From Faecousia sp. (GTDB lineage: Bacteria; Bacillota; Clostridia; Oscillospirales; Oscillospiraceae), in the NCBI GenBank assembly GCA_029258495.1, contig JARHYV010000130.1, forward strand, positions 1 through 46,093: a DNA stretch of 46,093 nt. Direction: 5' to 3'. Each line of letters begins with the position of its first letter. Within the stretch, counting starts at the first letter, position 1. The notes under the pieces were generated by a model. The model had not been told where the DNA came from, did no database searches, and was given only the letters and a program-made list of their open reading frames with translations. The position numbers and the translations under genes were made by a program. Shown piece after piece: positions 294-24,271 of the stretch.

Positions 294-1364
294 ATGGCAG
301 ATAAAGTCACCCTGAAGCAAATCGCCGAACAGGCCGGTGTGTCCCTGACAACGGTACACCGTGTGCTCAACAACAAGGAGGGCTGCAGCGAGGCTCTGAA
401 GGAGAAAATCCTTGCCATCGCCAAGGAACAGGGCTACACAGTCAATCTGGCAGCGGCATCTCTGCGCAAGCAGACCACCCACATTGCACTGCTGTTTCCC
501 CTGCGGGTGAAGGAGGCACAGTATTTCCGCGATCGGATCTTGGACGGGTATTTTCAGTTCCGGAATGAAGTTTCCCAGTTCAATGTCATGTTCCACGAAT
601 ACTATGTCCCCGGCACGGATATGGAAACCTTCAACGACAACACCCTGAGCACTCTGAAAAACATCTACCGGGATCGTCCGGTGCATTTTGACGGAGTGGT
701 GGTCTATGGTCTTGTGCTGGACGAGGCATCCGAAACCATCGTCAACCGGATCATCGGCAGCGGCACACGGGTCATCGTGGTGGAGAGCTGTCCAAAGAGC
801 CTGTCCGACATCTGCAATGTCACGGAAAACGAAGAGCTTGCCGGAAAAATGGCAGGTGAGATGCTTGCAAAGGCGGTGCATCGCCCGGGCAAGGTGGTGA
901 TCCTCAGTCAGGACACTCCCGGCGGCGAAATCAACACCGACGCATGCATGCAGACCCTTGCCGAGCTGTGCCCCCAGCATCAGGTCATCAACCAGCTGCT
1001 GGCATGGGACATCAAGCAGAACAGCAGCATCTTCGCCGAGATCCTTGCCATGCCGGATCTGGTGGGCATCTACAGCACCTGCGCCCGCCACACCAAGTCC
1101 ATGGTTCGGGCACTGAACCGCACCGGCATCCGTCCGGATGCCGTCATCGGCAGCGAGCTGTTCGAGGAGAGCTATCAGGCATTGCAAAACCGCACCATGG
1201 ACGCAGTCATCGACAAATGCCCTGCGCTCATCGGCTACAAGGCTGCACAGATGATCTTCAACGATCTGATTAAGGGTGAAAAACTGCCAAAGGAGCACAA
1301 GGTCACACCGCGCATCATCCTGCGCTGCAACAGTGACCTGTACTACGAAACACAGGAAGATTAA
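294..1364 (+). CDS. LacI-family transcriptional regulator
   Basis: N-terminal LacI HTH (VTLKQIAEQAGVSLTTVHRVLN), hinge YTVNLAAASL, sugar-binding-type C-domain; RBS GAGGTG. Confidence 0.95.
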   Translation: MADKVTLKQIAEQAGVSLTTVHRVLNNKEGCSEALKEKILAIAKEQGYTVNLAAASLRKQTTHIALLFPLRVKEAQYFRDRILDGYFQFRNEVSQFNVMFHEYYVPGTDMETFNDNTLSTLKNIYRDRPVHFDGVVVYGLVLDEASETIVNRIIGSGTRVIVVESCPKSLSDICNVTENEELAGKMAGEMLAKAVHRPGKVVILSQDTPGGEINTDACMQTLAELCPQHQVINQLLAWDIKQNSSIFAEILAMPDLVGIYSTCARHTKSMVRALNRTGIRPDAVIGSELFEESYQALQNRTMDAVIDKCPALIGYKAAQMIFNDLIKGEKLPKEHKVTPRIILRCNSDLYYETQED

Positions 1365-1397
1365 CAAAAAAGAAGAGAAACAAGGAGTGTAGAGATC

Positions 1398-2855
1398 ATG
1401 GCAAACACTGTCAAGCTCAACGAACAGTACGCCCACAATGTCCAAAACGCCCCTGCCTTCGGCATGAAGGACAAAATCGGATACATGCTGGGTGACTGGG
1501 GTTTCAACAGCCTTCAGGTCATCGTCAACAGCTATCTGATGCTGTTCTGCGTCAATGTCATGGGGATCAAGGCGACCCATTTCGCCACCATCGTATTCCT
1601 ATGCAAGGCACTCGATGCGCTGAACGATACCTTCATCGGGCGCACCGTAGATAACCGTCCCGCCACAAAATACGGCAAAATGAAACCGTATCTGAAATGG
1701 TTCGCCATTCCGTACATGCTGTTCACCATGGTACTGTTCGTGAATGTCACCGCAATGCCCTATGCCCTGCGGATCGCATGGGTTCTGGTGATCTACTTCA
1801 TCTGGGGTATCGTGGGCACCTTTATCAATGTTCCCTACGGCGCCATGTCCAACATCATCACCACCGACCAGATGCAGCGCACCGAGCTTTCCAACTTCCG
1901 CTCCATCGGCAGCTTTTTGGGCATGATCATTCCCACCACACTGGCTCCCATGCTGCTGTTCGATCAGAATGAGGATCCCATCGCAAGCCGTTTCATCCTG
2001 CTCAGCCTGATCATGGGCACCTTCTGCGTGGTATGCCTGTTCCTGTCCCACAAGCTCATCAGCGAGCGCGTTCTGGTGACTCCCGACAGCAACATCTCCG
2101 CAGGCGGCGAAAAGATCAACTACCTTCAGGTCGCCAAGGGTTTCCTGAAGAACCGCATCATGATCGCCGTGGTTCTGGCATATGTGTTCTCCAAGCTGTT
2201 CATCCAGCCCGTTGCCATGATCAATCAGTATGTGTTCATGGTCTATTTCCAGGATACCTCCATGCTGTCCTGGGCATCCCTGAGCACCATGGTGCCTCTG
2301 GTTCTGGGCATGCTGCTGGTCAAACCTCTGGTCAAGCGGTTCGGCAAGAAGAACCTGGTCACATGGCCCTCTCTGATTGCTGCCGGCTGCTATGCCGTGA
2401 CTGCATTTGCTCCTATGACTCCCACCTCTTGGGTTCTGGTACAGCTGGGTGCATCCTGCTTTACCACCTCCACCACACTGCTTTTGTGGTCTTTGATCGC
2501 CGATGCCGTTGACTATCAGGCATACATCACCGGTCAGCGCAACGACGGCACCGTATACGCAACCATCACCTTCTTGGTATTCTTCGCCGCATCCGCATCC
2601 ACCTCCATCATCGCTCTGGTTCTGGAGGCTCTGGGCTACGACGCAACCCTCGGCTCCATGGGTCAGCTGCCCGGCGTTGCCGAACGGCTGAAGCTCTTCG
2701 GCGGTCTGTGGCCCACCGTTGGCTGCATCCTGGTGTTCATCTGCTACAAGATCATCTACAACCTGTCGGATGAGGAAATGAGCAAGATCAGCCAGAAGGT
2801 CTTGCAGATGGGCAAGGAAAAGGAAGCCGCTGCACTGAAAGAACTGGATAAGTGA
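1398..2855 (+). CDS. MFS glycoside-pentoside-hexuronide (GPH/MelB-like) cation symporter
   Basis: KDKIGYMLGD, DALND..IG..D, PYGAM, IADAVDY motifs; about 12 hydrophobic segments; RBS AAGGAG. Confidence 0.92.
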   Translation: MANTVKLNEQYAHNVQNAPAFGMKDKIGYMLGDWGFNSLQVIVNSYLMLFCVNVMGIKATHFATIVFLCKALDALNDTFIGRTVDNRPATKYGKMKPYLKWFAIPYMLFTMVLFVNVTAMPYALRIAWVLVIYFIWGIVGTFINVPYGAMSNIITTDQMQRTELSNFRSIGSFLGMIIPTTLAPMLLFDQNEDPIASRFILLSLIMGTFCVVCLFLSHKLISERVLVTPDSNISAGGEKINYLQVAKGFLKNRIMIAVVLAYVFSKLFIQPVAMINQYVFMVYFQDTSMLSWASLSTMVPLVLGMLLVKPLVKRFGKKNLVTWPSLIAAGCYAVTAFAPMTPTSWVLVQLGASCFTTSTTLLLWSLIADAVDYQAYITGQRNDGTVYATITFLVFFAASASTSIIALVLEALGYDATLGSMGQLPGVAERLKLFGGLWPTVGCILVFICYKIIYNLSDEEMSKISQKVLQMGKEKEAAALKELDK

Positions 2856-2898
2856 GCCGAAAGACGCTCATATCGTCCCCAAGGAGTATGAATTACAC

Positions 2899-3753
2899 AT
2901 GCTAAAACACGAAGTTACACAGATCGCACCCCACACCTGGTGCATCAGTGAGTTCCGTCTGGTCAATGCCTTTCTGGTGGAAGGCCGGGACAAGGCGGCA
3001 CTGATCGATACCGGCTGCGGCATCGGCGATCTGGCACAGATCGTCCGGGAATTGACCGACAAGCCCCTTATGGTGCTGCTCACCCACGGACATTTCGACC
3101 ACAACGGCGGCATCTTCCAATTCCCCGGCTGCCCCGTCTATCAGCATCCTGCCGATGCCCATCAGCAGGAGCAGACCATGAAGACCGTGGAAAAGCTCAC
3201 CGGCACACGGGATGAAAACAAGCTCCGCGCCTACTACATCACAAGCCGCGCTCCTATTCGCTGCCCGGATCTGGATGTAAACGAGCTGCTTTCTCTGGTT
3301 CCCACGGAGATGACCCCGGAGGATTACCACTGGCTGCCCATGGAGGACGGCACGGAATTTGATCTGGGCGGACGGATCCTTCGGGTGATCCACACCCCCG
3401 GCCATACCGACGGTGAGGTGTGCATTCTGGACAAGACCAGCCGCACCCTGTTCAGCGGCGACACCGCAAATGTGGGCATCATCCTCATGCGTCAGCCCAA
3501 CAATGATCCTTCCCTGATCCGGACATGCCGCCAGACCATGGCAAAGCTGTGGGCGCTGGAGGCAGACTATGACAAGCTTGGGGTCGGCCACGATGCCGTC
3601 ACCATCGACAAGCAGATCATAAAGGATTATCTGGATCTCACCACCGGACTGCTGGACGGCAGCATCGTGGGAAACTACGAGGAAGTGGGTTTCCGCAAGG
3701 GCGATGTGGCCCGCCTTGGGATGGCAGAGCTCTGGTATCAGTGCGATGCCTGA
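2899..3753 (+). CDS. Metallo-beta-lactamase-fold hydrolase (glyoxalase II/lactonase-like)
   Basis: LIDTG, THGHFDH (HxHxDH), TPGHT, FSGD, GH motifs; no signal peptide. Confidence 0.9.
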   Translation: MLKHEVTQIAPHTWCISEFRLVNAFLVEGRDKAALIDTGCGIGDLAQIVRELTDKPLMVLLTHGHFDHNGGIFQFPGCPVYQHPADAHQQEQTMKTVEKLTGTRDENKLRAYYITSRAPIRCPDLDVNELLSLVPTEMTPEDYHWLPMEDGTEFDLGGRILRVIHTPGHTDGEVCILDKTSRTLFSGDTANVGIILMRQPNNDPSLIRTCRQTMAKLWALEADYDKLGVGHDAVTIDKQIIKDYLDLTTGLLDGSIVGNYEEVGFRKGDVARLGMAELWYQCDA

Positions 3754-3836: not shown

Positions 3837-4418
3837 CTATAAGAACAGATAGATCAGTCCTGCAGCCATCACTACAATCAGCAGGACGAATATGCACAGT
3901 ATGGCAACGGTGGTCTTTACCAGATGCCGCTCCTTCAAAGTCAGGATCATCATGGAGATCACATCCGCCACAAAGAAGAATTGGCAGATGCCGCACAGGA
4001 TGCAGACAGCCTTGGAATGGACGCCCTCCTTGCGGCTCTTGGCAAGATAGGCGATGGCATAGGGGGTCGTGCCCACAAACACCCCATAGCCGAATGCTGC
4101 CAGCACCACCACAACGATCCCAAAGAAGATCATCAGCGGCAGCGGGAACACAGAGGCAATGAATGCCATGGCAATGGTTTCGCCGCCAACCAGATAAAAG
4201 GGGATCAGCCCGTATTTGAGGATCAGGCTGGCATTGAGCAGCGTCTTCCTGTCCCATTTCCTGCCCACCGCCAGAACGGTGATCAGTTCCACAAGCCCCA
4301 TGACGATGGGGAAGAGGAAACACAGCCCCTGCATCACCAAGCTATCGTGAAATCGGAGAAACAGCAGGGAAAACACATAGGTGAGCACCACATGCAGGAT
4401 CGGCAGAACATATGCCAT
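3837..4418 (-). CDS. Hypothetical integral membrane protein (about 193 aa)
   Basis: Several hydrophobic helices; start moved to ATG 4418 after RBS GAAAGGAG; own promoter-like TGATATAAT near 4519-4527. Confidence 0.75.
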   Translation of the reverse strand: MAYVLPILHVVLTYVFSLLFLRFHDSLVMQGLCFLFPIVMGLVELITVLAVGRKWDRKTLLNASLILKYGLIPFYLVGGETIAMAFIASVFPLPLMIFFGIVVVVLAAFGYGVFVGTTPYAIAYLAKSRKEGVHSKAVCILCGICQFFFVADVISMMILTLKERHLVKTTVAILCIFVLLIVVMAAGLIYLFL

Positions 4419-4547
4419 CGGGCATTCTCCTTTCATTTATCTGTATCGTCGAGCCCTCTTGTCCGTCTTAGCAGGTCATGTCCGCATATAACGCACATCT
4501 GTCCTGCTTTGTGGAGTCATTATATCAGATCTCTCTGCCGATGTCAC

Positions 4548-5189
4548 CTATTTCCTGGAAGTTTTCCGATTTGTTTGTCTGAGCATCAGAGAACCTGCCG
4601 AGCCTGCGCCCACCATCAGCAGGATCAGACTGCCGATCCCACGGCTGCAATCGGCTGTATCCGGTATATGAGAGCCGTCAGGGATCTCCTCTGCCTGAAA
4701 TTGCCAGTCCAAGCTGCCTGACGCCTGCTGAAATTCATTGCCCATGGTGATAGGCACCTGCAGGGTCAGATCCAGGATCGCCTCTGCTCCGGGATAAAAT
4801 GTCCCCAGATATGCCCAATCCGTCAGCTGTGCCGGTTCATCCGCCGGCGCATCAAACAGCAGCTGCTGTGTATGAGCCGTCACCGTCAGCTCCAACTGAT
4901 GCAGGAAATCCGCGCCCTCAGCCTGAGCTCCCAGAGAACGGAGATACAGCTTTACGGGGTTCGTCCCATGATTGCAGATACGGATCTGCTGGGTCAGGCT
5001 GTCGCCGGGCATCACCTCCTTGAACCCATCAAACAGATCCGTGGGGGACTGATCGCTGCCGGGGCTGAATACAAACGCATCGCTGTGCCCCTGATATTCC
5101 ACCGTGCCATGGGCATGCGCTGTCACCGCAGCACCCAGCACCACCAGTACGGCAGTCACTCCGGCGAGATATCTCCGAAAAATGCCCAT
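4548..5189 (-). CDS. TasA/camelysin-like protein with Sec signal and C-terminal sortase-B-type sorting signal (putative pilus anchor)
   Basis: Signal peptide ending AHA; FKEVMPGDSLTQQIRICNHG resembles the PG..I.V.N.G motif of the neighbours; IPDTAD + hydrophobic helix + RKTSRK tail; TGATG overlap with upstream stop. Confidence 0.75.
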   Translation of the reverse strand: MGIFRRYLAGVTAVLVVLGAAVTAHAHGTVEYQGHSDAFVFSPGSDQSPTDLFDGFKEVMPGDSLTQQIRICNHGTNPVKLYLRSLGAQAEGADFLHQLELTVTAHTQQLLFDAPADEPAQLTDWAYLGTFYPGAEAILDLTLQVPITMGNEFQQASGSLDWQFQAEEIPDGSHIPDTADCSRGIGSLILLMVGAGSAGSLMLRQTNRKTSRK

Positions 5190-5791
5190 CAGCACAAGCC
5201 TCCTTCCCGGATCTGCTGCGGATCGATGCCCCATGCATCTGCCACTGCCGCGATCCCCGAGGCTGTAAGCCCCTGCGCCTGAATTGCCTCAGCAGCCACC
5301 TCGATCACCTGTCTGCCGCCGTCCGGATCCGTGTAGAAGGCAAGTGGGATCCCTTCCGCGCCGATCAACGGCGATTCCGGCTGTTTTCCCGGCTCCACCG
5401 GATATTTGTAGTAATAGCAGTTCCCCTGCGCAAACCAATCCTTTCCCAGAGGGAACGCTGCCACGGGCGCACTGCCCCCGATCCGCTCATCTGCTCCATT
5501 TACACGATAGCTTATAAGCTTTACCCGTATATAGGCCGGGGTGCTGCCTGTATTGGTCACATTCACATCGCGCTTGACGCTGCCGTCAAAACATTCATCC
5601 ACCCGGCAGTCCACCCGTGCAGGCATCAAAACATTCAACAATGGGTCGGATGCCGTTTGGAGCCACGCCGCCGTCGTACCGACAGCGATCCCCACTGCCG
5701 CACATACGGATGCCGCTGCCGCAGTGATCCTGTACCGGACAGTGCGTTTTCTGCTCCGGATACTCCGGTGCCAGTCATACTGACCGTCCAT
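5189..5791 (-). CDS. SipW-dependent signal peptide protein, TasA/BsaA-like subunit 3
   Basis: GTTAA|WLQTASDPLLNVL SipW-class motif; VNVTNTGSTPAYIRV, YYY..PVEPG, AEAIQ..AW shared with paralogs. Confidence 0.85.
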   Translation of the reverse strand: MDGQYDWHRSIRSRKRTVRYRITAAAASVCAAVGIAVGTTAAWLQTASDPLLNVLMPARVDCRVDECFDGSVKRDVNVTNTGSTPAYIRVKLISYRVNGADERIGGSAPVAAFPLGKDWFAQGNCYYYKYPVEPGKQPESPLIGAEGIPLAFYTDPDGGRQVIEVAAEAIQAQGLTASGIAAVADAWGIDPQQIREGGLC

Positions 5792-5809: not shown

Positions 5810-8800
5810 TTATGGATGCCCTTTGGGCAGCCGAGCAACATTCTGTACCACATCGCTGAACCCGTTGAGCCAGGATGTCCTCCTGCCGGAATTAACGCAG
5901 GTGATGCACCCCCGGGGATGGCCGCTGTCAAGACAGACCCCTGTACCGATGCGGATATCCGTATACCGCCATGCCCACTTCGCATCCTCCTGAATGGTAT
6001 ATTGCCCCACCGGAAGTTCATAGATCACAGCTTGATCGCTGCCGATGATCGTCAGTTCCGTATACGGCTCGCCATCCTTGCAGACCGTAAAGACATAGGG
6101 TTCTCCTGCTTTGCCTCCCTGTTTCTCAATGGTCAGGCAGCAGGTCTGAACATGCAGCAGGAAGGTTCCCTCCTCTGCGTGAAAACCGCAGTCCGGCTCA
6201 CAGGGCTTGTGGAGGAAATGCACATATTCCCCGATCTGCTGACCGGACAGCTGCACATCCACCTGAACCGGAATATCCGCCTTTGTCTGCACGATGCCGT
6301 CCTGCGTCCCTGCACCGAGCCGGTAGCTCAGCTCCAGCTGAGGCGGTATCCCCTGCATGGTCACATCCTGATCCAAGCTCTCACCATGCCTCCACACCGT
6401 ATCCAGATGGTTGGCATCAAAGCCATCCGGCACAGGCGCGCCATAGAAAACGCTGCTGTCCCGAAAGGTAAGCTCCGGCAGAAAAACTCGGATCTTCCCG
6501 GTGCCCGTTCCGATTTTTTGTACAGCCGAACCTGCTGATTTGGGAGTGATCCGGGCTGAAACCGTATAGGTCTGATCTTGGGTCAGTCCCGTAAGGGCTT
6601 GCCCCTTGCAGATGGTCACCTCGGCATAGGCCGTCTGCCACGGCTCAAGCTCCTTCAGCAGATCCACACCGCCTGCATGGATCGTCACTCCCTGCATCAA
6701 TGCGTCTTGGGATGCATCAGCCAGCAGGTAGAAATTGTGATCCTTGGTCTGAACCGTGATATCCGGGATGGGCAGATCCACGCTGGGGATCTCGAAATGC
6801 GCGACCGGCCCGTCCTTGGTATATAAGCCGGACTCTGCCCCATTGGTGGGCACACCGTTACCGCCCAGAAACCCCTGACGCATCTGGATGGGAATGGTAA
6901 CCACCAGCTTTCTGCCCCTGTACACGGTATGTCCCTGTTCTGTTACTGTGCCGACCCAGTTTTCCGAATAGTCAAAATCCGTCACGGTTATGGTTTTTCC
7001 GTCCGGAGATATCTGCACATCGGCCGCAAATTCCTCCGGCTGTGCAAAGCTGTCATCGCCAATGTAATCGGCTGTGCTGACCCGGATATCCCGTTGGTCT
7101 GCTCCCTCAGGCAGCCGGAAGGCATCCCCGATCACATCTGCCAGAACGGTTTGCTTTCCCAGCTCTATGGCACTTCCTCCGATCTGGATCTGATCCGAGA
7201 TCGTCTGGAAGATGTTGTTCAGCGCATGGGCATCCGCTGCCGAAAGGTAATAGCTCGGCTCCTGAACCACCCCATTGTTGCCGGATATATTCTGCATGAA
7301 CCAGTTGCTTTTTTCCGTTGTGGAACCATATTCTGATCCGGCTGAGGCAGCATCGGCCCCCTCAAAGATCCCCACGGAATACACCGATGCACCATAGGTA
7401 TCCTTTGTTGCCTGCGCCGCACGGATCGCCGACTCCGCAACCGTTTCATCGTATCCGGAGGCTCCGGGCTGTCCGTCTGTAAAGACGATCATCACCCGGT
7501 TCCGTTTCTGTCCGACGGGTACCGGATTGTTCTGCCAGATCCTGTTTGCCAGCTCCACACCCAGATCCACATAGGTCGCACCTTTTGCCTCAAGACTCCG
7601 GATCGAGCTTTGGATCTGCATCAGACCATCGGGATCCTTCATATCCTGAAATGCCTCTGCACATACCGCATCCGTCACCGTATCATACCGATGCTGCACA
7701 TCTCCTACGAGGATCTCGGTATTTCGGTACATGCCGGAGGAGCTGTCCCGTGCGGATGCAAAGCCCACCATCGCGATCCGATGATCCACATCATCCGCCG
7801 TACCTGCTACTGCATCTGCGCCTCTGGCTTTCTCGGCCACCGCATCCGAAAAACGCGCCACAGCTGTTTTCAGTGCCTCCAAACGACTTGTTGACGATGT
7901 CTGCTCCGCCGTATAAAATGTCCAATCCGGTGCCGGCATATTCTGGGGCACACATACCTCATTCATGGTGCCATCGCTCCGAAGATAGGAGAACCGATAG
8001 CCTTCCACCACCTCTTCCCTGTAAAATGCATCCGAAAAAGCCGGAATATTCCTGCCGCCGAAGTCCCTGCCGAGGCTCCCGCAGGCTTGACATGCATAGC
8101 TGTATTCGCCCAAAAACTGGGTGACAAAGACTGCACCATATGTACCGTCGGCACAGCGATGGAAAAACGCCCCGGATTCGGCGGCATACCTTCGGTTCGT
8201 ATGTCCGGAATACGGCACATAGGTACCGGCAGGCAGTTTTTCCTTCACAGCTGTCACCGGCGCATAGGCTCCGTCCGTCCGCTTGACATACAGATTTTTC
8301 CGCCGACGATACAGCTCTTCCGGTGTGCCGGTGAAGGGTGTGTAGGTGTAGGATGCAAACTCCCGATCCATAGAGCCGGACTGATCCAAAACCAGAATGA
8401 TATCCGTGGGGATCTGGGTCTGCTGATGGATGATGGTCTGTTTTCCCGTGACCCAAGCCTCCAGGGTCAGGGTGTACCGACCGTTTGCATCCGGATGGGA
8501 CACATGCTTTTCAGTCCGGATGCCGCTGTCCGGTTTTTCCGGCATTGCGCGTCCATCTTCCTCTGTATCCCCGATCCCCGTTACAGGCGGCAGGAAGGGC
8601 GCTGCATCCGTCACATTTCGGGATGGATGCAGCACCTCCCGATCCTCCGGCGGTTGTGTTCCCTCCGGCTCCGGCTGATGGGCATCAAATGCCCGTGATG
8701 CCCGCTCAAGCTCCTGCCGCTGCTGCTGGGTCAGTGCCGATGCAAAGGACTCTCGGCTGCTGCCATCCAGCTCCTCCAGCAGTCTGTCAAATTCCTCTGC

Positions 8801-9007
8801 ATCTGCCGCCTGTATCAGTGCCTGATACAGCTGCTGCACCTGCTCCGCAGTCATGCCGGAGGACTCTGTTTCCTCCGAGTGCAGAAGGCCCGTCTGTTCC
8901 GCAGTTGTGCTGACGGAGCCTTCCTCCCCGGCAGCCGCCAGAACGCCATTGCCCATGGACATTGCCAAACTCAGGCACAGCAGGAGCGATATCAGTCTTC
9001 TTGCCAT
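5810..9007 (-). CDS. Large secreted vWA-domain adhesin (1065 aa), tip-pilin-like
   Basis: Sec signal; MIDAS DQSGS...GAT...FTDG; Ig/Cna-like segments; C-terminal LTIEK...LPVGQYTIQE...VN domain; no LPxTG or TM anchor. Confidence 0.85.
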   Translation of the reverse strand: MARRLISLLLCLSLAMSMGNGVLAAAGEEGSVSTTAEQTGLLHSEETESSGMTAEQVQQLYQALIQAADAEEFDRLLEELDGSSRESFASALTQQQRQELERASRAFDAHQPEPEGTQPPEDREVLHPSRNVTDAAPFLPPVTGIGDTEEDGRAMPEKPDSGIRTEKHVSHPDANGRYTLTLEAWVTGKQTIIHQQTQIPTDIILVLDQSGSMDREFASYTYTPFTGTPEELYRRRKNLYVKRTDGAYAPVTAVKEKLPAGTYVPYSGHTNRRYAAESGAFFHRCADGTYGAVFVTQFLGEYSYACQACGSLGRDFGGRNIPAFSDAFYREEVVEGYRFSYLRSDGTMNEVCVPQNMPAPDWTFYTAEQTSSTSRLEALKTAVARFSDAVAEKARGADAVAGTADDVDHRIAMVGFASARDSSSGMYRNTEILVGDVQHRYDTVTDAVCAEAFQDMKDPDGLMQIQSSIRSLEAKGATYVDLGVELANRIWQNNPVPVGQKRNRVMIVFTDGQPGASGYDETVAESAIRAAQATKDTYGASVYSVGIFEGADAASAGSEYGSTTEKSNWFMQNISGNNGVVQEPSYYLSAADAHALNNIFQTISDQIQIGGSAIELGKQTVLADVIGDAFRLPEGADQRDIRVSTADYIGDDSFAQPEEFAADVQISPDGKTITVTDFDYSENWVGTVTEQGHTVYRGRKLVVTIPIQMRQGFLGGNGVPTNGAESGLYTKDGPVAHFEIPSVDLPIPDITVQTKDHNFYLLADASQDALMQGVTIHAGGVDLLKELEPWQTAYAEVTICKGQALTGLTQDQTYTVSARITPKSAGSAVQKIGTGTGKIRVFLPELTFRDSSVFYGAPVPDGFDANHLDTVWRHGESLDQDVTMQGIPPQLELSYRLGAGTQDGIVQTKADIPVQVDVQLSGQQIGEYVHFLHKPCEPDCGFHAEEGTFLLHVQTCCLTIEKQGGKAGEPYVFTVCKDGEPYTELTIIGSDQAVIYELPVGQYTIQEDAKWAWRYTDIRIGTGVCLDSGHPRGCITCVNSGRRTSWLNGFSDVVQNVARLPKGHP

Positions 9008-9576
9008 TGCGAACCATCCCTTTCTCCGTCCATGGGCCAGCCTGCCGCATGCAGGGCATCATCCCCGTTGTTGGCAGTCTGTGTCGCCTGAGCTGCCACA
9101 TGAATGGCAGCGTTTGCCTGCTGATACAGCTCGTCCATATCACCGGAGAAGGTCACAGCCGTAAACAGCGGCTCGGTTTCCTCTCCGGGAGCCAGTGGGG
9201 TGTTGTAATAATACGCGCCGTCCTTCTCCGTCCAGCAAGCCGTGTTCAGCTCCAGCTCCATCATAGACGGATCTGCCTGCCGGTGTCCCTGCAGGGTGAT
9301 CTCCCGATCGACCAGCAGCCGCACATAGGCCGCACTGCTGCCTACATTTGCAACGGTGACGATCTTGCTGATCCGCTGCCCCGGCAGCACCTTTCCTGGC
9401 TGCTCATAGGGAACCAGTGTGCCGTCATCCAGACGGGCATTTTCCTTCAGCCGGATCCGGACACTGCCGGCTGTGATCACATTTCGTGCAATGCCCGTGC
9501 CGCTGAAACAGGCCAATGTCCCGGGTACTGCTAGGCAGATCACCAAAACCGCCAGGACTGCGATCTTCTTTTTCAT
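8992..9576 (-). CDS. SipW-dependent signal peptide protein, TasA/BsaA-like subunit 2
   Basis: MKKK...GTLA|CFSGTGIARNVITAGSV; LPGQRISKIVTVANVGSSAAYVR; YYYNTPLAPGE; RBS AAGGAG before ATG 9576. Confidence 0.88.
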   Translation of the reverse strand: MKKKIAVLAVLVICLAVPGTLACFSGTGIARNVITAGSVRIRLKENARLDDGTLVPYEQPGKVLPGQRISKIVTVANVGSSAAYVRLLVDREITLQGHRQADPSMMELELNTACWTEKDGAYYYNTPLAPGEETEPLFTAVTFSGDMDELYQQANAAIHVAAQATQTANNGDDALHAAGWPMDGERDGSQWQED

Positions 9577-9712: not shown

Positions 9713-10309
9713 TTACGCGCCAAATCCGCCTGCTGCCCATGCCTCTGATGCCGTGGTGAACCCTTCCGACTGGATCGCATAAGCGTTTACAAGGATCTGC
9801 TTGCCCTGATAGCCAGCCAAAGTGTCCTGATCCACGGCAGCCGCAATCGAAAAGCTCTCAAATACCGGGATGTCCTGCCCTGCATTTGCGATCTGCTGAT
9901 AGGCATAGACCTGCTCCGCACCGTCCACCTTAGACCAACCCAGACGACTCATCTGGGCATCGATGCTCTGAGCAGCCGGTGATTCAATGGCGGCAATATC
10001 GTTCGCGATCTGCACAAACAGCCAGCAGTTTTCACTGGCTGCATCCACATGGATCACCGGATCCTTGGTATAGCTGTGCCCGGGCAGCAGGTGATATTCA
10101 TTGGTCTGGACACGATTGGATTCATCTGTTACATATGTACCATCCGGAGCAACCGCAGCCTCGTCCAGTGTAATGGCGACCCTGCCCACCGTAAAGGTAT
10201 TTGTTACATGATCCTGAGCAGTCAGGTATGCAACCGTACACATGACAGAGGATACCACCAAAGCCGCACCGCACAGTGCAGCAACCACTGTTTTTTTCAT
10301 TGTTTTCAT
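9713..10309 (-). CDS. SipW-dependent signal peptide protein, TasA/BsaA-like subunit 1 (probable major subunit)
   Basis: CTVA|YLTAQDHVTNTFTVGRV SipW-class motif; LLPGHSYTKDP; AYAIQ..AW; RBS AAGGAGG before ATG 10309. Confidence 0.88.
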   Translation of the reverse strand: MKTMKKTVVAALCGAALVVSSVMCTVAYLTAQDHVTNTFTVGRVAITLDEAAVAPDGTYVTDESNRVQTNEYHLLPGHSYTKDPVIHVDAASENCWLFVQIANDIAAIESPAAQSIDAQMSRLGWSKVDGAEQVYAYQQIANAGQDIPVFESFSIAAAVDQDTLAGYQGKQILVNAYAIQSEGFTTASEAWAAGGFGA

Positions 10310-10310
10310 T

Positions 10311-10910
10311 TTAGAAAACCTCCTTAGATGATATATGGGAAGCCTCTTCGGCATTGCCCCAAGATCGTTGTCCGGCAGAGCCTGCCTTGCTCTGTCGGGA
10401 TGCACCGGGAGCCTTACGACGATCGGTGAACAGCTCCGGAACAAAAATGAGTATCAAAAGGATCGCTCCCCCTGCACAGGAACACAATCTTCCGGACGGA
10501 GTCTGGATATAGCTGGCCGCATACCCCAGATACGGTACCATGAATACCGGCTTGCCGATCACATTCTCTTCCTGTACCGGCTCGATATCTGCCGAGGTGT
10601 TGGCATCGCCTTTCGTTCGGTAGCAGATGCCACCATCCTGCTGTATGATCTCCACCACCCGATGCGTCGCTGCGGTATGCTCATTGAGCATAAAGGTGAT
10701 AGGGTCACCGGGATTGATCCCGCTGCGGTCTGTCCGCTGAACATAGATCAGCGACCCCACCGGATATTCCGGCTCCATAGAGCCCGACCGCACGGCAAAG
10801 GCCTGCAGACCCACCAGTCGTCCGCCTGCCAGCAGTACCGCCATGATCGCCACTGCCGCCACCAAAACCGTTGTGACGGCATCCCAAACTTTTCTCACTT
10901 TTCCATTCAT
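10311..10910 (-). CDS. sipW: ER-type (S26B) signal peptidase I
   Basis: SGSMEP (Ser), THRVV (His), TKGDAN..D motifs; N- and C-terminal TM helices. Confidence 0.95.
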   Translation of the reverse strand: MNGKVRKVWDAVTTVLVAAVAIMAVLLAGGRLVGLQAFAVRSGSMEPEYPVGSLIYVQRTDRSGINPGDPITFMLNEHTAATHRVVEIIQQDGGICYRTKGDANTSADIEPVQEENVIGKPVFMVPYLGYAASYIQTPSGRLCSCAGGAILLILIFVPELFTDRRKAPGASRQSKAGSAGQRSWGNAEEASHISSKEVF

Positions 10911-11106: not shown

Positions 11107-13794
11107 TCAGCAGGTGATCTTGCACACGCTGCCATCTTTTGTCTTGGAGATTTGGATCTTGGCGGGAATGGTTTCCGCCAGTCGTTCCACATGGGAGATG
11201 ATGCCCACCATGCCGGAGCTGCGCCGGATGCCGTTCAGGATCTCCAGTGCATCGTCAATGGATTTGCGATCCAGAGAGCCGAACCCCTCATCGATGAACA
11301 TCGCCTCCAGTCGGACTCCGCTGCCCTGCGCCTGAACCACGGTGGAAAGCCCGATGGCAAGGCTCAGCGACAGCAGGAACTTCTCGCCGCCGGACAGGGT
11401 GGTCACGCTCCTGCGTCCGTTGTGATCGGCAACCTCCAGCTCCAGACCGCGCTTTCTGGCAGAGCCCGACGACTCATTGGTGCGGTAGAGCTGATACCGA
11501 CCGCCGTAGACTGTCCTGAGCAGCTGATTGGCGGCAGCGGTGATGGAGGTGAGCATGACGCCAAGCACATACCGCTGCAGGCTGATGCCGTAATCCCCTC
11601 GGATGCGCTTTGCAAAGACCACAGCCTCATCGCACTTTGCCCGTTTTTCGCCGTAAGCTTTGGTGCGTTTTTCCAGATCCTCTGCATCCTTTTCCATGGT
11701 CTTCCGGCGGCTGTTTCTGAGCACATAGACCTCGTTCAGGTCGCTCTGCTGCTTTTGCGCCTGCTCCAGTCGCTGCTTTGCCCCCTGCACATCCGGCTGC
11801 TGCCGGTCTTGGAGCTGCGCCTGCTTTTCCGCTACTTCTCTTGCGGCATTGGCAAGATCGGTGCGGAACTGGATCAGTGCCGTTCTGCGCCGCTGAAGGG
11901 CCGCCGTATCCATGCAGGCTGCCTGATACTGGGCATCGTTTTGGAACCCTGCATCCGTCCGAGCCTGCTCCCATCTGCATCTATGCTCGTCAAACTCTTC
12001 CGACGCAGCCTCCAGGTTCTTCCGGCTGCGCTCAAGCCCCATACGGGATGCTTGCAGATTGCCCTGAGCATCCTGCATCCTCTGCTGCAGCTCCGTTTCC
12101 GTCCGCTCAAAGTCACCGATCGCCTTTTCAAGTCCCTGTGCCGCTGCAAGCAGCTGCTGCAGATTGTCGATCCCCGGGATCCGCTGGGCTTTGACCTGCT
12201 TGTACTCCGTCACTGCCACCGCATAATCCTGCTGTTTCTGGGTGAGCACGCTCTGCGCAGATTTATAGTCTTCATCTGCCTCCATATAGCCTTTTCGGGC
12301 AGCATCCTCCTGTCTGATGGCAGCCGTCCTGTCTTGGGCGCAGCGTTTCAGCTCGTCCTCGGTCACATGCCCCTCCGCAGGGCGCGCCGGTGCCGGATGG
12401 GACAGGCTGCCGCAGACCGGACAAGGTGCTCCGTCGGTGAGCTTTTCCGCCAGAATGCTGCCGATACCGGACAGATACAGCATCTGCACATGCTCAAATG
12501 TTTCCGATGCCTGCTGCTGCATCCGGATCGCCTGCTCCCACCGGCTGCGTGCGTGGCAGCGCTTTTCCTCCGCCTTATCAGACCGGATCTTGGCATCCTG
12601 TAAGGCAGCCTTCGCCTGATGCCCCTGCTGCTCCTTCTGCCCGAGGGCTTGATAGACCCCCTCGGCATTGTTCAGCAGCACCAGATCCTGCGTATTCCGC
12701 AGGTGACGCTGCCGGTCATTTTCGTGGCATGCCTGCCGCTGCTGAACCTCCTGCGCGGTGCGCTGTGCGCCCAGCACCGCCTGCTGCGCTTTTTCCACTT
12801 CCTTCTGCTCACGCAGCAGCTTTTGGTGCGCCAGCTCATACTGATGATAGTCCCCGGTGATCCGCTCTGCCGCATCCGCCCAATTCAGGATGACCTCCTC
12901 CTGATCGGCAGCGGACACCTTGGGCAGCAGGGCATTCAGCCGTTTTTTCAGCTCATCCAGCTGCTCAAATTCCCGATTTTCCAGCAGCAGCTTATCCCAT
13001 TCCTGCTTGCAGTCCTGAACCTCTTTGGTCAGCGCATTCAGCCGCTGCAAAAGCTCTTCCACCTGAACCGACTCCTCCGCGGTCATCTCCCGGAGCTGCT
13101 CAAGCCCCTGACAGCCATAGCCGTTCAGCTTATCCTGAATGAGCATCCGCTCCTGATCCAGCTGCTTGCTCTCGGCATCCGCCTGCTCATAGAGCCTGAC
13201 GGCGATCTTCTGCCATCGCTGCGCATGGAACAGGGTCACAAGGATCTTTTCCTTCTCCTCCGAGCCGGAGACCAACAGCCTTTCAAACTGCCCCTGAGGC
13301 AGGATGATGACCTGCCGGAACTGCTCATAGGTCAGCCCGATGAGCTGATTTGCCATCTCATTGAGAAAGGACGGCTTATCCTTGGCATCCGGCAGCGGGA
13401 CAAATGTCCCATCCTTCAGGATCTGACATTCACAGGTGGCATTGTATTCCGACAGCAGCTTTTTCTCCGGAGTTTCCACCGCCTTGCGTCTTTTCTTCGG
13501 CTTGAACCCCCGATAAAAGCGATAGCGCTCTGCGCCGCTTTCGAAGATGTACTCCACAAAGGTTTCGTCCGTATCCGCCGCCTGCTTGCAGCGCATCACC
13601 GGCAGCTCTCCGCGCAGTCCGCCGCTGGATCTTCCATAGAGGGCATAGCACATGGCATCCAGAATGGTGGTCTTGCCGGCTCCTGTTTCGCCGCAGATCA
13701 GGAACAGACCGTTCTTTTCCAGTTTGGTAAAATCCACGAATTGTTCCTGCATATACGGGCCGAAACACTGAAATCGCACGGAAATCGGTTTCAT
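11107..13794 (-). CDS. sbcC: SMC-like nuclease ATPase subunit SbcC
   Basis: Walker A GETGAGKTT, Q-loop LPQGQF, coiled coil, zinc hook CPVC, LSGGE, IDEGFGSLD; ATGA overlap with sbcD. Confidence 0.95.
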   Translation of the reverse strand: MKPISVRFQCFGPYMQEQFVDFTKLEKNGLFLICGETGAGKTTILDAMCYALYGRSSGGLRGELPVMRCKQAADTDETFVEYIFESGAERYRFYRGFKPKKRRKAVETPEKKLLSEYNATCECQILKDGTFVPLPDAKDKPSFLNEMANQLIGLTYEQFRQVIILPQGQFERLLVSGSEEKEKILVTLFHAQRWQKIAVRLYEQADAESKQLDQERMLIQDKLNGYGCQGLEQLREMTAEESVQVEELLQRLNALTKEVQDCKQEWDKLLLENREFEQLDELKKRLNALLPKVSAADQEEVILNWADAAERITGDYHQYELAHQKLLREQKEVEKAQQAVLGAQRTAQEVQQRQACHENDRQRHLRNTQDLVLLNNAEGVYQALGQKEQQGHQAKAALQDAKIRSDKAEEKRCHARSRWEQAIRMQQQASETFEHVQMLYLSGIGSILAEKLTDGAPCPVCGSLSHPAPARPAEGHVTEDELKRCAQDRTAAIRQEDAARKGYMEADEDYKSAQSVLTQKQQDYAVAVTEYKQVKAQRIPGIDNLQQLLAAAQGLEKAIGDFERTETELQQRMQDAQGNLQASRMGLERSRKNLEAASEEFDEHRCRWEQARTDAGFQNDAQYQAACMDTAALQRRRTALIQFRTDLANAAREVAEKQAQLQDRQQPDVQGAKQRLEQAQKQQSDLNEVYVLRNSRRKTMEKDAEDLEKRTKAYGEKRAKCDEAVVFAKRIRGDYGISLQRYVLGVMLTSITAAANQLLRTVYGGRYQLYRTNESSGSARKRGLELEVADHNGRRSVTTLSGGEKFLLSLSLAIGLSTVVQAQGSGVRLEAMFIDEGFGSLDRKSIDDALEILNGIRRSSGMVGIISHVERLAETIPAKIQISKTKDGSVCKITC

Positions 13795-14921
13795 TGGACA
13801 TCCTCCTTCTGGGTCTGCGCAAGTGCCTGAGCAAATCTCTCCATTTCCTCCTCTGAGGGGGCATATTGGTAGCACTCGGCAAAGAATTTGCACATGATAT
13901 CGGTTTCATCCAGACTTTCCAGTTCTTCAACGGACAAAGATGAGGTTTCCTCCTCCGAGTCCACACGCTTTCCGATCAGCTCCAGAAGATAGGGAAAACG
14001 CTCCTTCAGATCCGCCTGCAGCTCCAGACCTGCATAGCGGTCGGTCACATGCAGCCGGAGATAATCCTGCTGCAGATCCGTTCTGGCGATCAGCTCCTCA
14101 TAGGTTCCTGTCGCGCTCTGCCGATCCCTGAGCAGGGGCAGCTCCACAAAGGTCTGCTCCATGGTGTCGGTATCCACCAGAACGACGCCCTTCTTCTGGC
14201 TCTCCTCCGCACCGAAGGAGTACTTGATGGGGCTGCCGCTGTAACGGATATGGGGTGCGATCACCTGAGGCTTGTGGATATGCCCCAGTGCCACATAGTC
14301 AAAGCCTGCAAACACATCCTTGGAAACCGCCGTGGCAGAGCCGACCTTTGCCGATCGGTCTGAGTCGGAAAGCTCCGCATTGACGATATAGGCATGGCTC
14401 ATGACGATGTTTTTTCGGCGGGTGTCCATATTCTCACGAATGTTCCGGCAAACCACCTGATAGGCATCCTCCTGCGAGCGGATCTGCTCCTGATCCTCCG
14501 GAAACAGGGCGATGACCTCGTCCCGGGTGAAATAGGGCAGGCTGTAAACCGCCGTCTTTCCGCCGTCCAGCAGGATCGGCTCCGGATCCCGCTCCAGTCT
14601 GCCGGTGACATACATGCCGGATCCCCTCAGCAGCTCCCGGCAGGACGAGAGCCGTGCCGCACTGTCGTGATTTCCTGCGATGAGGATGAATTTTACCCCC
14701 AGTCGGGCGCACAGTGTGGTGGCAGCATCGTTGAACAGCCGGATGGCATCGGCATTGGTGACGCTGCTGTCGTAGATGTCCCCTGCACACAGCACCGCCT
14801 CCACCTGCTCCTTCCGGATCAGCTCATACAGCCTGTCGAGGAAGTATCTCTGGCTGTCCTCATAGCTGCCAGAGCCCAGCGGCATGCCAAAATGCCAGTC
14901 GGATGTGTGAATGATTTTCAT
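13791..14921 (-). CDS. sbcD: Exonuclease SbcCD nuclease subunit D
   Basis: HTSDWH, AGDIYD, GNHD, SH, LGHIH metallophosphoesterase motifs. Confidence 0.95.
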   Translation of the reverse strand: MKIIHTSDWHFGMPLGSGSYEDSQRYFLDRLYELIRKEQVEAVLCAGDIYDSSVTNADAIRLFNDAATTLCARLGVKFILIAGNHDSAARLSSCRELLRGSGMYVTGRLERDPEPILLDGGKTAVYSLPYFTRDEVIALFPEDQEQIRSQEDAYQVVCRNIRENMDTRRKNIVMSHAYIVNAELSDSDRSAKVGSATAVSKDVFAGFDYVALGHIHKPQVIAPHIRYSGSPIKYSFGAEESQKKGVVLVDTDTMEQTFVELPLLRDRQSATGTYEELIARTDLQQDYLRLHVTDRYAGLELQADLKERFPYLLELIGKRVDSEEETSSLSVEELESLDETDIMCKFFAECYQYAPSEEEMERFAQALAQTQKEDVQ

Positions 14922-15032
14922 AGCCTGTCCCCTTTCCCCAAGAAAAACACAAATCTGCAAATATCTTCTCAAAATCAGAATAAACAGCAAAAAATCCCGT
15001 ATTCTTGTTTTCTATTATACTGTTCCGGCAGG

Positions 15033-16087: not shown

Positions 16088-16891
16088 TCACTGGGCTTTG
16101 GGTGTATCCGTCACCCGATCAAGCTGTTTCAGCGACCCTACCACCAGATAACGGGCATCCTGATATTCATAAGAGCAGGTGGACAGCAGCACAGAGTGTT
16201 CCACCGTGCTCAGATCCGTTTCGATGGGATATACCGACCGATCCTGCACATCCTCCAGGAATTTCCGATATGCGTCCTCGGAATAGGGGAACCGATAAAT
16301 ATCCGAGTCTGCATCCGTCTGGAGGACACCGATCACATCCACCCGATAGTCCGCATCCGGTGTGAGCAGGTACATGACCGGGTGTTCCTTGTAAAATTCC
16401 TCGCTCTGATACTCTGCAAGCACCGCAAACATGCTGTCGTTGTTCATATTGTGCCCGTAGATGATGCTGTTGTGATCCTTGAACTCCCCATCGCTGCGAT
16501 AGTCCATAAAGATCGAGCCGGAGTGATTGTAGTTGCCGTCGAGCATCCGGCGCAGGTAATAGTCGTTGTCCTGTGCCTGAACAATGGGATAATTCAGCGT
16601 GGTATCCGGGCAGTAGATCCATCCCACCACATCCTCATTCTCCTGAAGCAGTGCGTCAAAATCCACCTCAATGGGAGCCGTTTCCTTGGGAACCGAAGGC
16701 TCGGTGGCATCGGGAGCGGGCTTTTTTGTGTCGGACTGCTTGACAAATTTGTCTGTTGTCGCGGCATAGACCTTTTCCGCCTGAGAATACGCGCTGTAAA
16801 TGGAGTAGATCTGATAGCCGGAATAGCACATCACACCCAGACAGATCACCAACAGAACACTTCTTAAAAACTTTTTCATATCGTATTCCAT
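16088..16891 (-). CDS. srtB: Class B sortase
   Basis: N-terminal TM; YPIVQ..DNDYYL, GSIFMD, IYGHNM (His), LSTC (Cys), ARY (Arg). Confidence 0.92.
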   Translation of the reverse strand: MEYDMKKFLRSVLLVICLGVMCYSGYQIYSIYSAYSQAEKVYAATTDKFVKQSDTKKPAPDATEPSVPKETAPIEVDFDALLQENEDVVGWIYCPDTTLNYPIVQAQDNDYYLRRMLDGNYNHSGSIFMDYRSDGEFKDHNSIIYGHNMNNDSMFAVLAEYQSEEFYKEHPVMYLLTPDADYRVDVIGVLQTDADSDIYRFPYSEDAYRKFLEDVQDRSVYPIETDLSTVEHSVLLSTCSYEYQDARYLVVGSLKQLDRVTDTPKAQ

Positions 16892-18380: not shown

Positions 18381-18551
18381 TCAGCTTTGTTTCATTTCGT
18401 CGATGGCTTTGGCAATGGTGCAGTTTCCGTGGAATTTGCAGCTTTCATAGCAGCAGTCCACCTCCGTCACTTCCCCCTGCTCCACAGCCACCTCCACCAG
18501 TCGGCTTGCATCCAGCTGTCTGCAATATCCGGTCAGATATCTTTCTTCCAT
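18381..18551 (-). CDS. Small Cys-rich hypothetical protein (56 aa)
   Basis: RBS GGAGGAG + ATG 18551; MEERYLTGYCRQLD...DCCYESCKFHGNCTIA; fills the space up to the terminator. Confidence 0.75.
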   Translation of the reverse strand: MEERYLTGYCRQLDASRLVEVAVEQGEVTEVDCCYESCKFHGNCTIAKAIDEMKQS

Positions 18552-20392: not shown

Positions 20393-20424
20393 CGCATGTT
20401 CTCCTAGGGTTTGTTGAAATTTTT

Positions 20425-20466
20425 CCAAAAAGACACCACAAAGGGTCTGTTTCCAGACCCTTTGTG
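20425..20466 (-). terminator. Hairpin (partial terminator) between glgA and the GH13 gene
   Basis: CACAAAGGGTCTG-TTTC-CAGACCCTTTGTG, followed by a displaced U-run on the minus strand. Confidence 0.6.
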
Positions 20467-20474
20467 TATCTGTC

Positions 20475-23035: not shown

Positions 23036-23049
23036 ATCCGCTTACCTCC

Positions 23050-24246
23050 TTATAGCATCTCGCCGGGCAGGAGCACTGAACCGGCAGCCACAACGGCATT
23101 CTTGTGGGTGACGCTGATCTTCTTCTTTTCGTCAGGGCCGAATGTTCCGCCCACCACGGCGCCGCGGCAGATCTGGGTGCCTTCACCGATGATGGCATGA
23201 CGGACAACGGCACCGGGGGCAATGGAAACACCGGGCATGATCACCGAGTCCTCCACCAGAGCCCCTTCGCCCACGGAGCATCCCACGGAAATGATGGAAT
23301 GGCGGACGGTGCCATAGACCTCAGAGCCCTCTGCAATAAAGCAGTTGACGGTCTTCGCAGCCTCATCTATGTAGGAAGAGGGCAGGGCGCTGTTTCGGGC
23401 ATAAATCTTGAATTTCTCGTCGCCGCGGATGTTGAATTCCGGTTCCCTGCCCAAAAGCTCCATATTGGCCTCCCACAGGGAGTCGATGGTGCCCACATCC
23501 TTCCAGTAGCCGTTGAAGGTATATGCCATCAGCTTGTGGCCGTCTGCAAGGAGCTTGGGGATGATGTTCTTGCCGAAGTCATTGGAGGAGGTGGGATCCT
23601 CTTCGTCGTTGATGAGTGCCTCGCGCAGGACTTTCCAGTTGAACACATAGATGCCCATGGAGGCATTGGTGGACTTGGGCTTGGCAGGCTTTTCCTCAAA
23701 TTCATAGATGGAGCAGTCCGGATTGGTGTTGAGGATGCCGAAACGGGATGCCTCTGCAAGGGGCACATCCCGGACGGCGATGGTGCACGATGCCTCGCTC
23801 TTTTCGTGATAGGCGATCATGGCTGCATAGTCCATCTTATAGATATGGTCGCCGGAAAGCACCACCACATAATCCGGATCGAACCGATCCACAAAATCGA
23901 TATTCTGGTAGATGGCATTGGCAGTGCCCTTGTACCAGCCGCTCTTTTTGTCGTGACGCTCATAGGGCGGCAGGATCTGGGCGCAGCTGTGGGTCTTGTT
24001 CAGACCCCAGGGCTGTCCGTTGCCGATGTATTCGTTCAATTCCAAAGGCTGATACTGGGTCAGGATGCCCACGGTATCGATGCCGGAGTTCACGCAGTTG
24101 CTCAGTGGGAAGTCGATGATGCGGTATTTGCCGCCAAAGGGTACCGCAGGTTTTGCGGTTTTCTCTGTAAGGACCTTCAGTCTGCTGCCCTGGCCGCCGG
24201 CCAGGAGCATTGCGATGCATCGCTTTTTATGGAAGTACATGGTCAC
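23050..24246 (-). CDS. glgC: Glucose-1-phosphate adenylyltransferase
   Basis: [37 protein letters not shown]; start may be ATG 24240. Confidence 0.97.
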
Positions 24247-24271
24247 AGCTCCTTTGTTTGTTGTTTTTCAT

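What the first reader, a model, noticed from the sequence alone, without database searches (positions are those of the whole stretch)
5810..5872. Adhesin C-terminal tail mimics the pilin N-terminal donor strand
Seen: the vWA protein ends WLNGFSDVVQNVARLPKGHP. The predicted mature N-terminus of the next gene product (W43, 5663-5665) is WLQTASDPLLNVL. Both match W-L-x3-S-D-x3-N-V with identical spacing. The other subunits begin YLTAQDHVTNTF and CFSGTGIARNVI (same pattern, one residue shorter). Inference: the tail is a C-terminal donor strand that docks an anchorless adhesin onto the filament tip. It could act as a general cargo-display tag.
Basis: partly seen in the sequence, partly recalled or inferred. 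Interest (0 to 1): 0.85.

Follow-up and report, generated by a model that had tools for sequence, protein, structure and literature searches.

The report
Adhesin tail plugs into pilus tip
A large surface adhesin of a Clostridia bacterium ends in a conserved 20-residue tail that copies the linking strand of the neighbouring fibre subunits and is predicted to slot, likely with a covalent lock, into a small adaptor subunit, which would put the adhesin at the tip of a TasA/BsaA-type pilus built the opposite way round to the donor-strand pili compared here.

Summary
The vWA adhesin ends in a W-[LF]-x7/8-N-x-[FW] tail after a complete CnaB domain, and the tail does not fold back in the model. It is conserved across Clostridia on adhesins with many different cargoes. 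The operon is a SipW/TasA-BsaA fibre locus. The next gene's pilin (P3) is the likely acceptor: the predicted complex scores 0.80 against a best control of 0.00, and P3 loses its catalytic Glu in 5 of 8 loci whose tail lacks the Asn, against 1 of 55 otherwise. That points to an Asn-Lys isopeptide lock. A donor-less TasA-fold subunit with a sortase or SLH anchor likely forms the base. BsaC-type proteins, whose role is unknown in print, carry the same tail. Nothing is shown experimentally. My literature searches found no description, but this scan noted the same idea earlier on other genomes.

The parts
5813..5872 (-). C-terminal donor-strand-like tail of the adhesin (W1046-P1065); predicted isopeptide donor N1056 at 5840-5842
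   Evidence: conservation; free in monomer model; matches pilin N-termini; residues L1047-N1056 in predicted interface; co-loss
5885..6142 (-). last CnaB-type Ig domain of the adhesin, complete without the tail (K962, E1007, N1039 in the pattern of an internal isopeptide triad); WxWxY signature at 5963-5977 predicted to pack on P3
5810..9007 (-). 1065-aa vWA adhesin with an ordinary (non-SipW) signal peptide and no C-terminal membrane or LPXTG anchor; BsaC-like
5189..5791 (-). P3, predicted tip adaptor pilin: mature start W43 (5663-5665), donor N53, E66 (5594-5596), K73 (5573-5575), hairpin 5468-5515 that contacts the CnaB domain in the model
4548..5186 (-). P4, predicted base subunit: TasA fold without donor strand, ordinary signal peptide, IPDTA + hydrophobic stretch + basic tail (4653-4667 for IPDTA); start codon chosen by eye (first ATG of the ORF is 5234)
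8992..9576 (-). P2, minor BsaA-like pilin with N-x-I donor strand and E/K; guessed to link shaft to P4
   Evidence: gene order
9713..10310 (-). P1, likely major pilin with SipW-type signal and N10/E23/K55 triad
10311..10910 (-). SipW-type signal peptidase
16088..16891 (-). class B sortase 5 kb upstream; candidate enzyme for anchoring P4 (untested)

Best explanation
The adhesin's last 20 residues are a conserved copy of the pilins' N-terminal linking strand and likely act as the first donor strand of a SipW-dependent TasA/BsaA-type pilus, predicted to fill the open groove of the adaptor pilin P3 and probably to lock there by an Asn-Lys isopeptide bond. Steps: (1) shown in sequence: adhesin = donor only, P1/P2/P3 = donor plus acceptor, P4 = acceptor only with a wall anchor. 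(2) Predicted: the CnaB domain packs sideways on a P3-specific hairpin through its WxWxY face while the tail enters the groove; this would be needed because a C-terminal donor leaves the protein body at the opposite end of the strand from an N-terminal one. (3) Inferred from BsaA chemistry and co-loss: N1056 bonds to P3 K73, catalysed by E66. (4) Inferred from the published base-growth model: SipW frees P3's own N-terminal strand, which enters the next membrane-tethered pilin; P1 subunits are added at the base. (5) Weakly inferred: P2 ends the shaft and donates to P4, which sortase (or SLH domains in other species) fixes to the wall; P4 lacks E/K, so this last joint would be non-covalent.
For: Tail conserved: 120 of 120 listed homologues (of 184 hits) have WLN[GW]FSx4N; among the best 150 of 5773 representative clusters 87 end in the tail, 37 in a membrane/LPXTG anchor, 26 other; 0 of 369 internal CnaB repeats are followed by the motif. 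Tail free in the monomer model (pLDDT 51-56 against 82-97 for the domain). Complex P3(15-158) + CnaB-tail: score 0.80, best of 3 controls 0.00; the mark was reached by 116 of 157 solved and 2 of 215 mismatched pairs; runs agree in at least 89% of contacts, partner pLDDT at least 81; tail residues 94-103 and P3 residues 16-22, E24, K31 and 120-129 are in the interface. Co-loss: P3 lacks the Glu in 5 of 8 loci with an Asn-less tail and 1 of 55 with Asn (Fisher p 4.6e-5; 7 label changes on a quick tree, at least 4 forced); in L043, L069 and L120 other pilins keep their Glu. BsaA N35/E56/K74 align with N/E/K of P1 (26/26/26 of 27) and P2 (16/15/15 of 16); P4 has K in 0 of 14. Adhesin and P3 stay adjacent when the operon is rearranged (L027, L054, L120). 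P4 model: top three Foldseek hits are TasA (best E 1.1e-5) and it aligns to the TasA fibre from residue 43, past the donor strand 28-38; P4 homologues end in sortase signals or SLH domains. Published model: newest subunit is membrane-tethered and accepts the previous subunit's strand (PMC11580942 discussion), which leaves an open groove at the far end.
Against: No experiment. The 25 best-resolved pairs of the complex are all CnaB-to-P3 contacts, not tail contacts, and the register of N1056 against K73 is not given; only P3 was tried as partner, and a TasA fibre structure exists that the model may recall. hhalign does not see tail-donor homology. In a joint alignment P3's Lys sits one column before BsaA K74 (K in that column in 3 of 19). 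3 of 8 Asn-less tails (L040, L063, L064) sit beside a P3 with intact E/K, and most co-loss loci are on long branches, so relaxed selection could contribute. L062 has a tailed adhesin and no P3-type gene, so the acceptor is not always P3. This window's tail has Ala, not an aromatic residue, two after the Asn. BsaC was found as a free 70-kDa band in strain HN13, although that strain has its two bsaB genes fused. VIA-align gave TasA only Z 6.8, rank 14.
Confidence: 0.72

Rival explanations
1. The tail is a donor strand, but works as a TapA-like primer or binds the major pilin directly: it starts polymerisation and the adhesin is later displaced or only loosely held.
For: TapA is proposed to give the first donor strand (PMC9674648 passages; PMC10151520 passages). 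A P1-trained matrix also finds the tail (13 of 26 and 9 of 21). BsaC is secreted as a monomer, and bsaC mutants make less polymer. L062 has no P3.
Against: Asn conserved in 55 of 63 tails and lost together with P3's Glu; adhesin-P3 adjacency survives rearrangement; a second, CnaB-P3 interface is predicted.
Confidence: 0.13
2. The adhesin binds P3 mainly through the CnaB domain and the P3 hairpin, as a side decoration wherever P3 is built in; the tail is an accessory strand or a relic.
For: All 25 lowest-error pairs are CnaB-P3 contacts. WxWxY is as conserved as the tail. Tails are cut short in L043 and L048 and lack Asn in 8 of 63 loci.
Against: Tail residues 94-103 touch with error under 8 A together with the groove-lining strands and E24/K31. 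Distant families lack WxWxY but keep the tail. Co-loss of Asn and Glu.
Confidence: 0.1
3. The tail folds back into the adhesin itself and the likeness to pilin N-termini is coincidence.
For: Only the last 109 residues were modelled, so docking on an earlier domain was not tested; hhalign finds no homology.
Against: The last domain is complete with its own last strand; upstream domains differ freely between tailed proteins; 0 of 369 internal CnaB repeats carry the motif; co-variation with a different gene.
Confidence: 0.04

Closest known systems
Clostridium perfringens srtB / sipW-bsaA-bsaB-bsaC operon (PMC11580942: abstract, sections 8, 12 and 15 and passages read; PMC7395162: passages)
   Same: SipW, TasA-like pilins with the N-E-K triad, an LPXTG-bearing paralogue, a vWA protein and a nearby class B sortase. 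In 4 of 5 loci fetched with the paper's BsaC peptide (the fifth contig ends before the C-terminus) BsaC ends ...YFYDNKEKINDF..., in register with BsaA's WFTSSDSVTNPF; the two bsaB genes score as P4-type and P3-type.
   Different: The papers call BsaC's role unknown, mention no C-terminal donor strand or tip in the text searched and call BsaB anchoring speculative. This locus has an extra pilin (P2) and a WxWxY-type last domain; hhalign did not link that domain to BsaC's.
Bacillus subtilis TapA-SipW-TasA (PMC9674648, PMC10151520: passages; PDB 8AUR, 5OF1/2)
   Same: Same subunit fold and donor-strand pattern; TapA is a donor-only protein with a complete Ig fold proposed to give the first strand.
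   Different: TapA's strand is N-terminal and SipW-released; here it is C-terminal on a 1065-aa adhesin with an ordinary signal peptide. TasA has no isopeptide triad and no donor-less wall-anchored subunit in its operon.
WxL/Elr pilus of Enterococcus faecalis (10.64898/2026.10.17.759780: abstract and sections 9, 14, 15 read)
   Same: Gram-positive donor-strand pilus with a modular tip adhesin (constant C-terminal attachment module, variable cargo) and a sortase-anchored base.
   Different: Opposite polarity: ElrA is acceptor-only at the tip and ElrB donor-only at the base; a membrane chaperone is needed; different fold; non-covalent.
Type V pili (PMC13655056: passages) and chaperone-usher pili (recalled)
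   Same: Donor-strand assembly with growth at the base; type V uses C-terminal donor strands.
   Different: Their tip subunits lack donor strands; here the tip protein is predicted to be the donor.
SpyTag/SnoopTag split-CnaB pairs (recalled; PMC5333627 seen in a search listing only)
   Same: Peptide strand completing a partner's sheet with a spontaneous Asn/Asp-Lys bond.
   Different: Those are engineered from one domain; this would be a natural pair between two genes, with a jelly-roll acceptor.

Membership tests
SipW-dependent TasA/BsaA fibre operon | SipW-type signal peptidase gene in the cluster | tested here: met
   TIGR02228 above cut-off; NF046067 SipW E 4e-32 but below its Bacillus cut-off (111 of 190 bits)
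SipW-dependent TasA/BsaA fibre operon | subunits with SipW-type signal followed by an N-terminal donor strand | tested here: met
   P1 TIGR04088 21 bits (cut-off 19); P2, P3 show the pattern but do not hit that model
SipW-dependent TasA/BsaA fibre operon | TasA jelly-roll fold of the subunits | tested here: met
   P4 model: TasA top three Foldseek hits; P4~P2 97.3%, P3~P2 99.3%. P1-P3 not modelled alone; P1 profile found no TasA by sequence
BsaA subfamily | N-E-K isopeptide triad | tested here: met
   for P1 and P2; P3 has N and E in register and a conserved K one column off
BsaA subfamily | TIGR04090 score above curated cut-off | tested here: not met
   P2 41.6 bits of 60; P1, P3 no hit
BsaA subfamily | SDS/heat-resistant polymers form | not testable with these tools
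   needs bench work
BsaC-type accessory adhesin | secreted vWA protein without LPXTG in a sipW-pilin operon | tested here: met
BsaC-type accessory adhesin | homologous C-terminal CnaB+tail module | tested here: inconclusive
   tail aligns through intermediate families and is the top window of 619 with the P1 or all-pilin matrix but not the P3 matrix; hhalign of the domain 0.4%
TapA | N-terminal, SipW-released donor strand | tested here: not met
   no TIGR04088 hit on the adhesin; the donor-like stretch is C-terminal
TapA | donor-only protein whose Ig domain is complete | tested here: met
   for the last domain; no pilin-type domain detected in the adhesin
WxL / chaperone-usher / type V pili | tip adhesin is acceptor-only (lacks donor strand) | tested here: not met
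   adhesin carries a donor-like tail and a complete last domain
WxL / chaperone-usher pili | dedicated chaperone gene | not tested
   no such family hit among the six cluster genes; the genome was not searched for one
Sortase-assembled pili | LPXTG signal on tip and shaft pilins | tested here: not met
   only P4 has a sorting-signal-like C-terminus

The most novel reading that the evidence does not exclude
Clostridia build a pilus with reversed polarity: a donor-only adhesin starts it by covalently plugging its C-terminal strand into a dedicated adaptor pilin (a natural SnoopTag-like pair), SipW cleavage drives growth at the base, and an acceptor-only subunit with an LPXTG or SLH anchor ends it. 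The CnaB+tail module is a swappable coupling for vWA, thioester, InlB-B, RCC1 and beta-helix cargoes, and it explains what BsaC and the two BsaB proteins do.
Probability: 0.55. Interest if true: 0.82.

Novelty: new variant of a known kind. Interest (0 to 1): 0.72.

Why it matters
It gives a full tip-to-base plan for a fibre system found in about a tenth of the Clostridia genomes sampled here (P3 profile: 41 of 401 in the order, 34 of 399 in the class), and a testable role for BsaC, which the papers read leave open. It predicts that the tip protein is the strand donor, the reverse of the WxL and type V pili as described in the papers read. It names three residues for a spontaneous bond between two gene products, which could serve as a covalent display system on a self-assembling fibre.

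Tried and rejected
The search for related loci with P3 alone found no relative, and alignments A1 and A3 were too diverse for it; the genome search was used instead. hhalign of CnaB+tail against P3 and P1 alignments: not significant. P1 profile against PDB sequences: one unrelated hit, no TasA. hhalign of the module against the BsaC-type C-terminus: not significant. Read-through or fusion of adhesin and P3 (same frame in this window) rejected: 21 of 61 loci share the frame, as chance gives. P2 as the model for the tail: rejected, P2 matrix finds 1 of 26 and 1 of 21. The careful tree did not finish; the quick tree was used. Rows left out of the co-loss count: L038 (P3 broken by unread bases), L048, L062, L065, L067, L070, L108-L112 (no P3-type best hit), L066, L068 (no module detected upstream of the hit), L050 (LPXTG protein, no pilins), six loci repeating genomes already counted, and 12 matches that were not fetched; L040 and L072 were added by hand. 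In one search the printed tail window is wrong for L031, L049 and L078, but their labels agree. Literature searches that found no description of a C-terminal donor strand in this system; subscription journals and the supplements and figures of PMC11580942 were not seen and may bear on novelty.

Full report
Observation. They lie in a six-gene cluster on the minus strand: sipW (10311-10910), P1 (9713-10310), P2 (8992-9576), the vWA adhesin (5810-9007), P3 (5189-5791) and P4 (4548-about 5186). Family scans give a SipW-like peptidase, a SipW-type signal on P1, a sub-threshold BsaA hit on P2 and a vWA domain on the adhesin. A class B sortase lies 5 kb upstream.

Conservation. All 120 listed close homologues (of 184 hits) end in WLN[GW]FSx4N. 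In the same family 24 of 300 genomes matched the last 106 residues. Their loci show the same cluster, with the tail as W-[LF]-x7/8-N-x-[FW]. A second set was found with the P3 profile, so independently of the tail (34 of 399 genomes of the class, 41 of 401 of the order, 8 of 401 of the phylum; weaker matches include other pilins). Most adjacent adhesins there also end in the tail. A profile search gave 5773 clusters at E up to 0.001, many of them plain CnaB repeats. Of the best 150, 87 end in the tail, 37 in a membrane/LPXTG anchor and 26 in neither by my rule; none of 369 internal repeats is followed by the motif. The profile was built from tailed proteins, so the share of tailed hits is inflated. 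Cargoes in front of the module include vWA, InlB-B repeats, thioester domains, RCC1 repeats, a PMP-type repeat and DUF5979 stalks (27 proteins scanned).

Is the likeness to pilin N-termini real? A matrix trained only on pilin N-termini places its best window of the whole protein at the C-terminus in 18 of 26 first-set proteins (P3 matrix; P1 13, P2 1; 1.5 expected) and in 8 (P3) or 9 (P1) of 21 second-set proteins (0.8 expected) (ranks). Kin are not independent, but the excess is large. Profile-profile comparison did not detect it.

Fold-back test. The model of residues 954-1062 has a complete eight-strand domain (pLDDT 82-97) matching CnaB domains, then an unstructured tail (pLDDT 51-56). The domain's own last strand ends at N1039, six residues before the tail. 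The full-length protein was not modelled.

Partner. P3 without its own strand was folded with the CnaB+tail fragment: score 0.80, best of three controls 0.00; the mark was reached by 116 of 157 solved and 2 of 215 mismatched pairs; runs agree in at least 89% of contacts; partner pLDDT at least 81. The interface holds tail residues L1047-N1056 and, on P3, its first and last strands with E24 and K31 (mature numbering). The 25 best pairs, however, are between the CnaB domain and P3 residues 51-63 and 124, and the invariant WxW lies in the interface. That motif is in 84 of 87 tailed terminal domains and 9 of 448 others. My reading (inference) is that a C-terminal donor leaves the protein body at the far end of the strand, so the CnaB domain lies along P3 and turns the cargo outward. 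The tag is then about 110 residues, not 20. Only P3 was tested, and a TasA fibre is in the PDB.

Isopeptide. In BsaA the donor N35 bonds to K74 with E56 as catalyst, supported by mutants (PMC11580942, sections 8 and 15). These positions align with N/E/K in P1 and P2; P3 has N and E in register and a conserved K one column earlier; P4 has K in 0 of 14. Across 63 adhesin-P3 pairs, 8 tails lack the Asn. P3 lacks the Glu in 5 of these 8 and in 1 of the 55 others, that one looking like a one-column slip (p 4.6e-5, not corrected for kinship; 7 changes on a quick tree, at least 4 forced). Three of the five also lack the Lys. Other pilins in L043, L069 and L120 keep their Glu. Against this: three Asn-less tails have an intact P3, and most co-loss rows are on long branches.

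Base and polarity. P4 is homologous to P2 (97.3%). Its model has TasA as top three Foldseek hits and aligns to the TasA fibre from residue 43, after the donor strand (VIA Z only 6.8). Its homologues end in sortase-type signals, often with a sortase gene near, or in SLH domains (those proteins were picked by eye). The published BsaA model has the newest, membrane-tethered subunit accept the previous subunit's strand, which leaves an open groove at the distal end and a free strand at the base. A donor-only adhesin and an acceptor-only anchor fit these two ends. In rearranged loci (L027, L054, L120) the order is adhesin, P3, P1s, P2, P4, with sipW moving about. The P2-P4 link rests on this order alone.

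Link to the studied system. A pattern from the paper's BsaC peptide fetched five records; residues V33, N35, F37, E56, K74 of the first pilin match the paper's BsaA numbering. In the four complete ones BsaC ends YFYDNKEKINDFGILKLN, in register with BsaA's N-terminus and close to tails such as WFRDKKEKVNTF. One bsaB gene scores as P4-type with VPKTG, the other as P3-type with N/E/K. The paper reports that strain 13 has these two genes fused; on my reading that removes adaptor and anchor, which would explain free BsaC and membrane-only anchoring there. This is inference; if BsaC could lock straight onto BsaA it should not be mostly monomeric, and hhalign did not link the last domains.

Comparison and novelty. 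The locus works like, and by most tests belongs to, the SipW/TasA-BsaA fibres. The adhesin works like TapA (first donor) but is not one. WxL tips are acceptor-only and bases donor-only; type V tips lack donor strands; chaperone-usher tips likewise (recalled). Nine searches found no account of a C-terminal donor strand in this system; figures, supplements and subscription papers were not seen. Earlier AI notes of this scan reached the same idea on other genomes; I had the reading before opening them, and they are not evidence. Verdict: real, new variant of a known kind, mechanism predicted with several agreeing lines, untested at the bench. Interest 0.72.

Noticed in passing
L070:1809-8381: A sipW locus with no tailed adhesin or P3; instead three large proteins (526-986 aa) begin with a SipW signal and N-terminal donor strand, an alternative way to carry cargo.
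   Followed up: no
L059:4360-6486: P3-type domain fused to a C-terminal DUF285/LRR region (708 aa) right after a tailed adhesin; P3-like matches in 578- and 537-aa frames also in G706 and G914.
   Followed up: partly
L048:8323-12195 and L043:6774-8321: Tails that stop before the Asn position; L048 has no pilin gene detected in 19.5 kb, a possible relic.
   Followed up: partly
L030, L040, L047, L049, L056, L071 (P4 genes): The base subunit carries SLH domains in place of a sortase signal.
   Followed up: yes
window 8992-9576 and 4548-5186: P2 donors keep Asn and have Ile two after it, while P4 has no Glu/Lys in register, so the predicted base joint would be non-covalent; why the Asn is kept is unexplained.
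   Followed up: partly
L061, L066, L119, L121: Loci with two or more large adhesins, each with a tail-like end, around one pilin set; the L061 adhesin is over 3300 aa.
   Followed up: no
window 4519-4547 (-): An 11-of-12 sigma-70 consensus directly after the P4 stop, ahead of an unannotated 199-aa membrane protein (3837-4436); 4 sites found against 4.9 expected in the region.
   Followed up: no
window 18533-26158 (-): Glycogen genes: glgB, glgA and a debranching/glucosidase gene by NCBIfam, below equivalog cut-offs for some.
   Followed up: no
window 11107-14990 (-) and 294-3753 (+): By eye, an SbcC/SbcD-like pair directly upstream of sipW, and a LacI-type regulator, MFS transporter and metallo-beta-lactamase-fold gene downstream; labels recalled, not scanned.
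   Followed up: no
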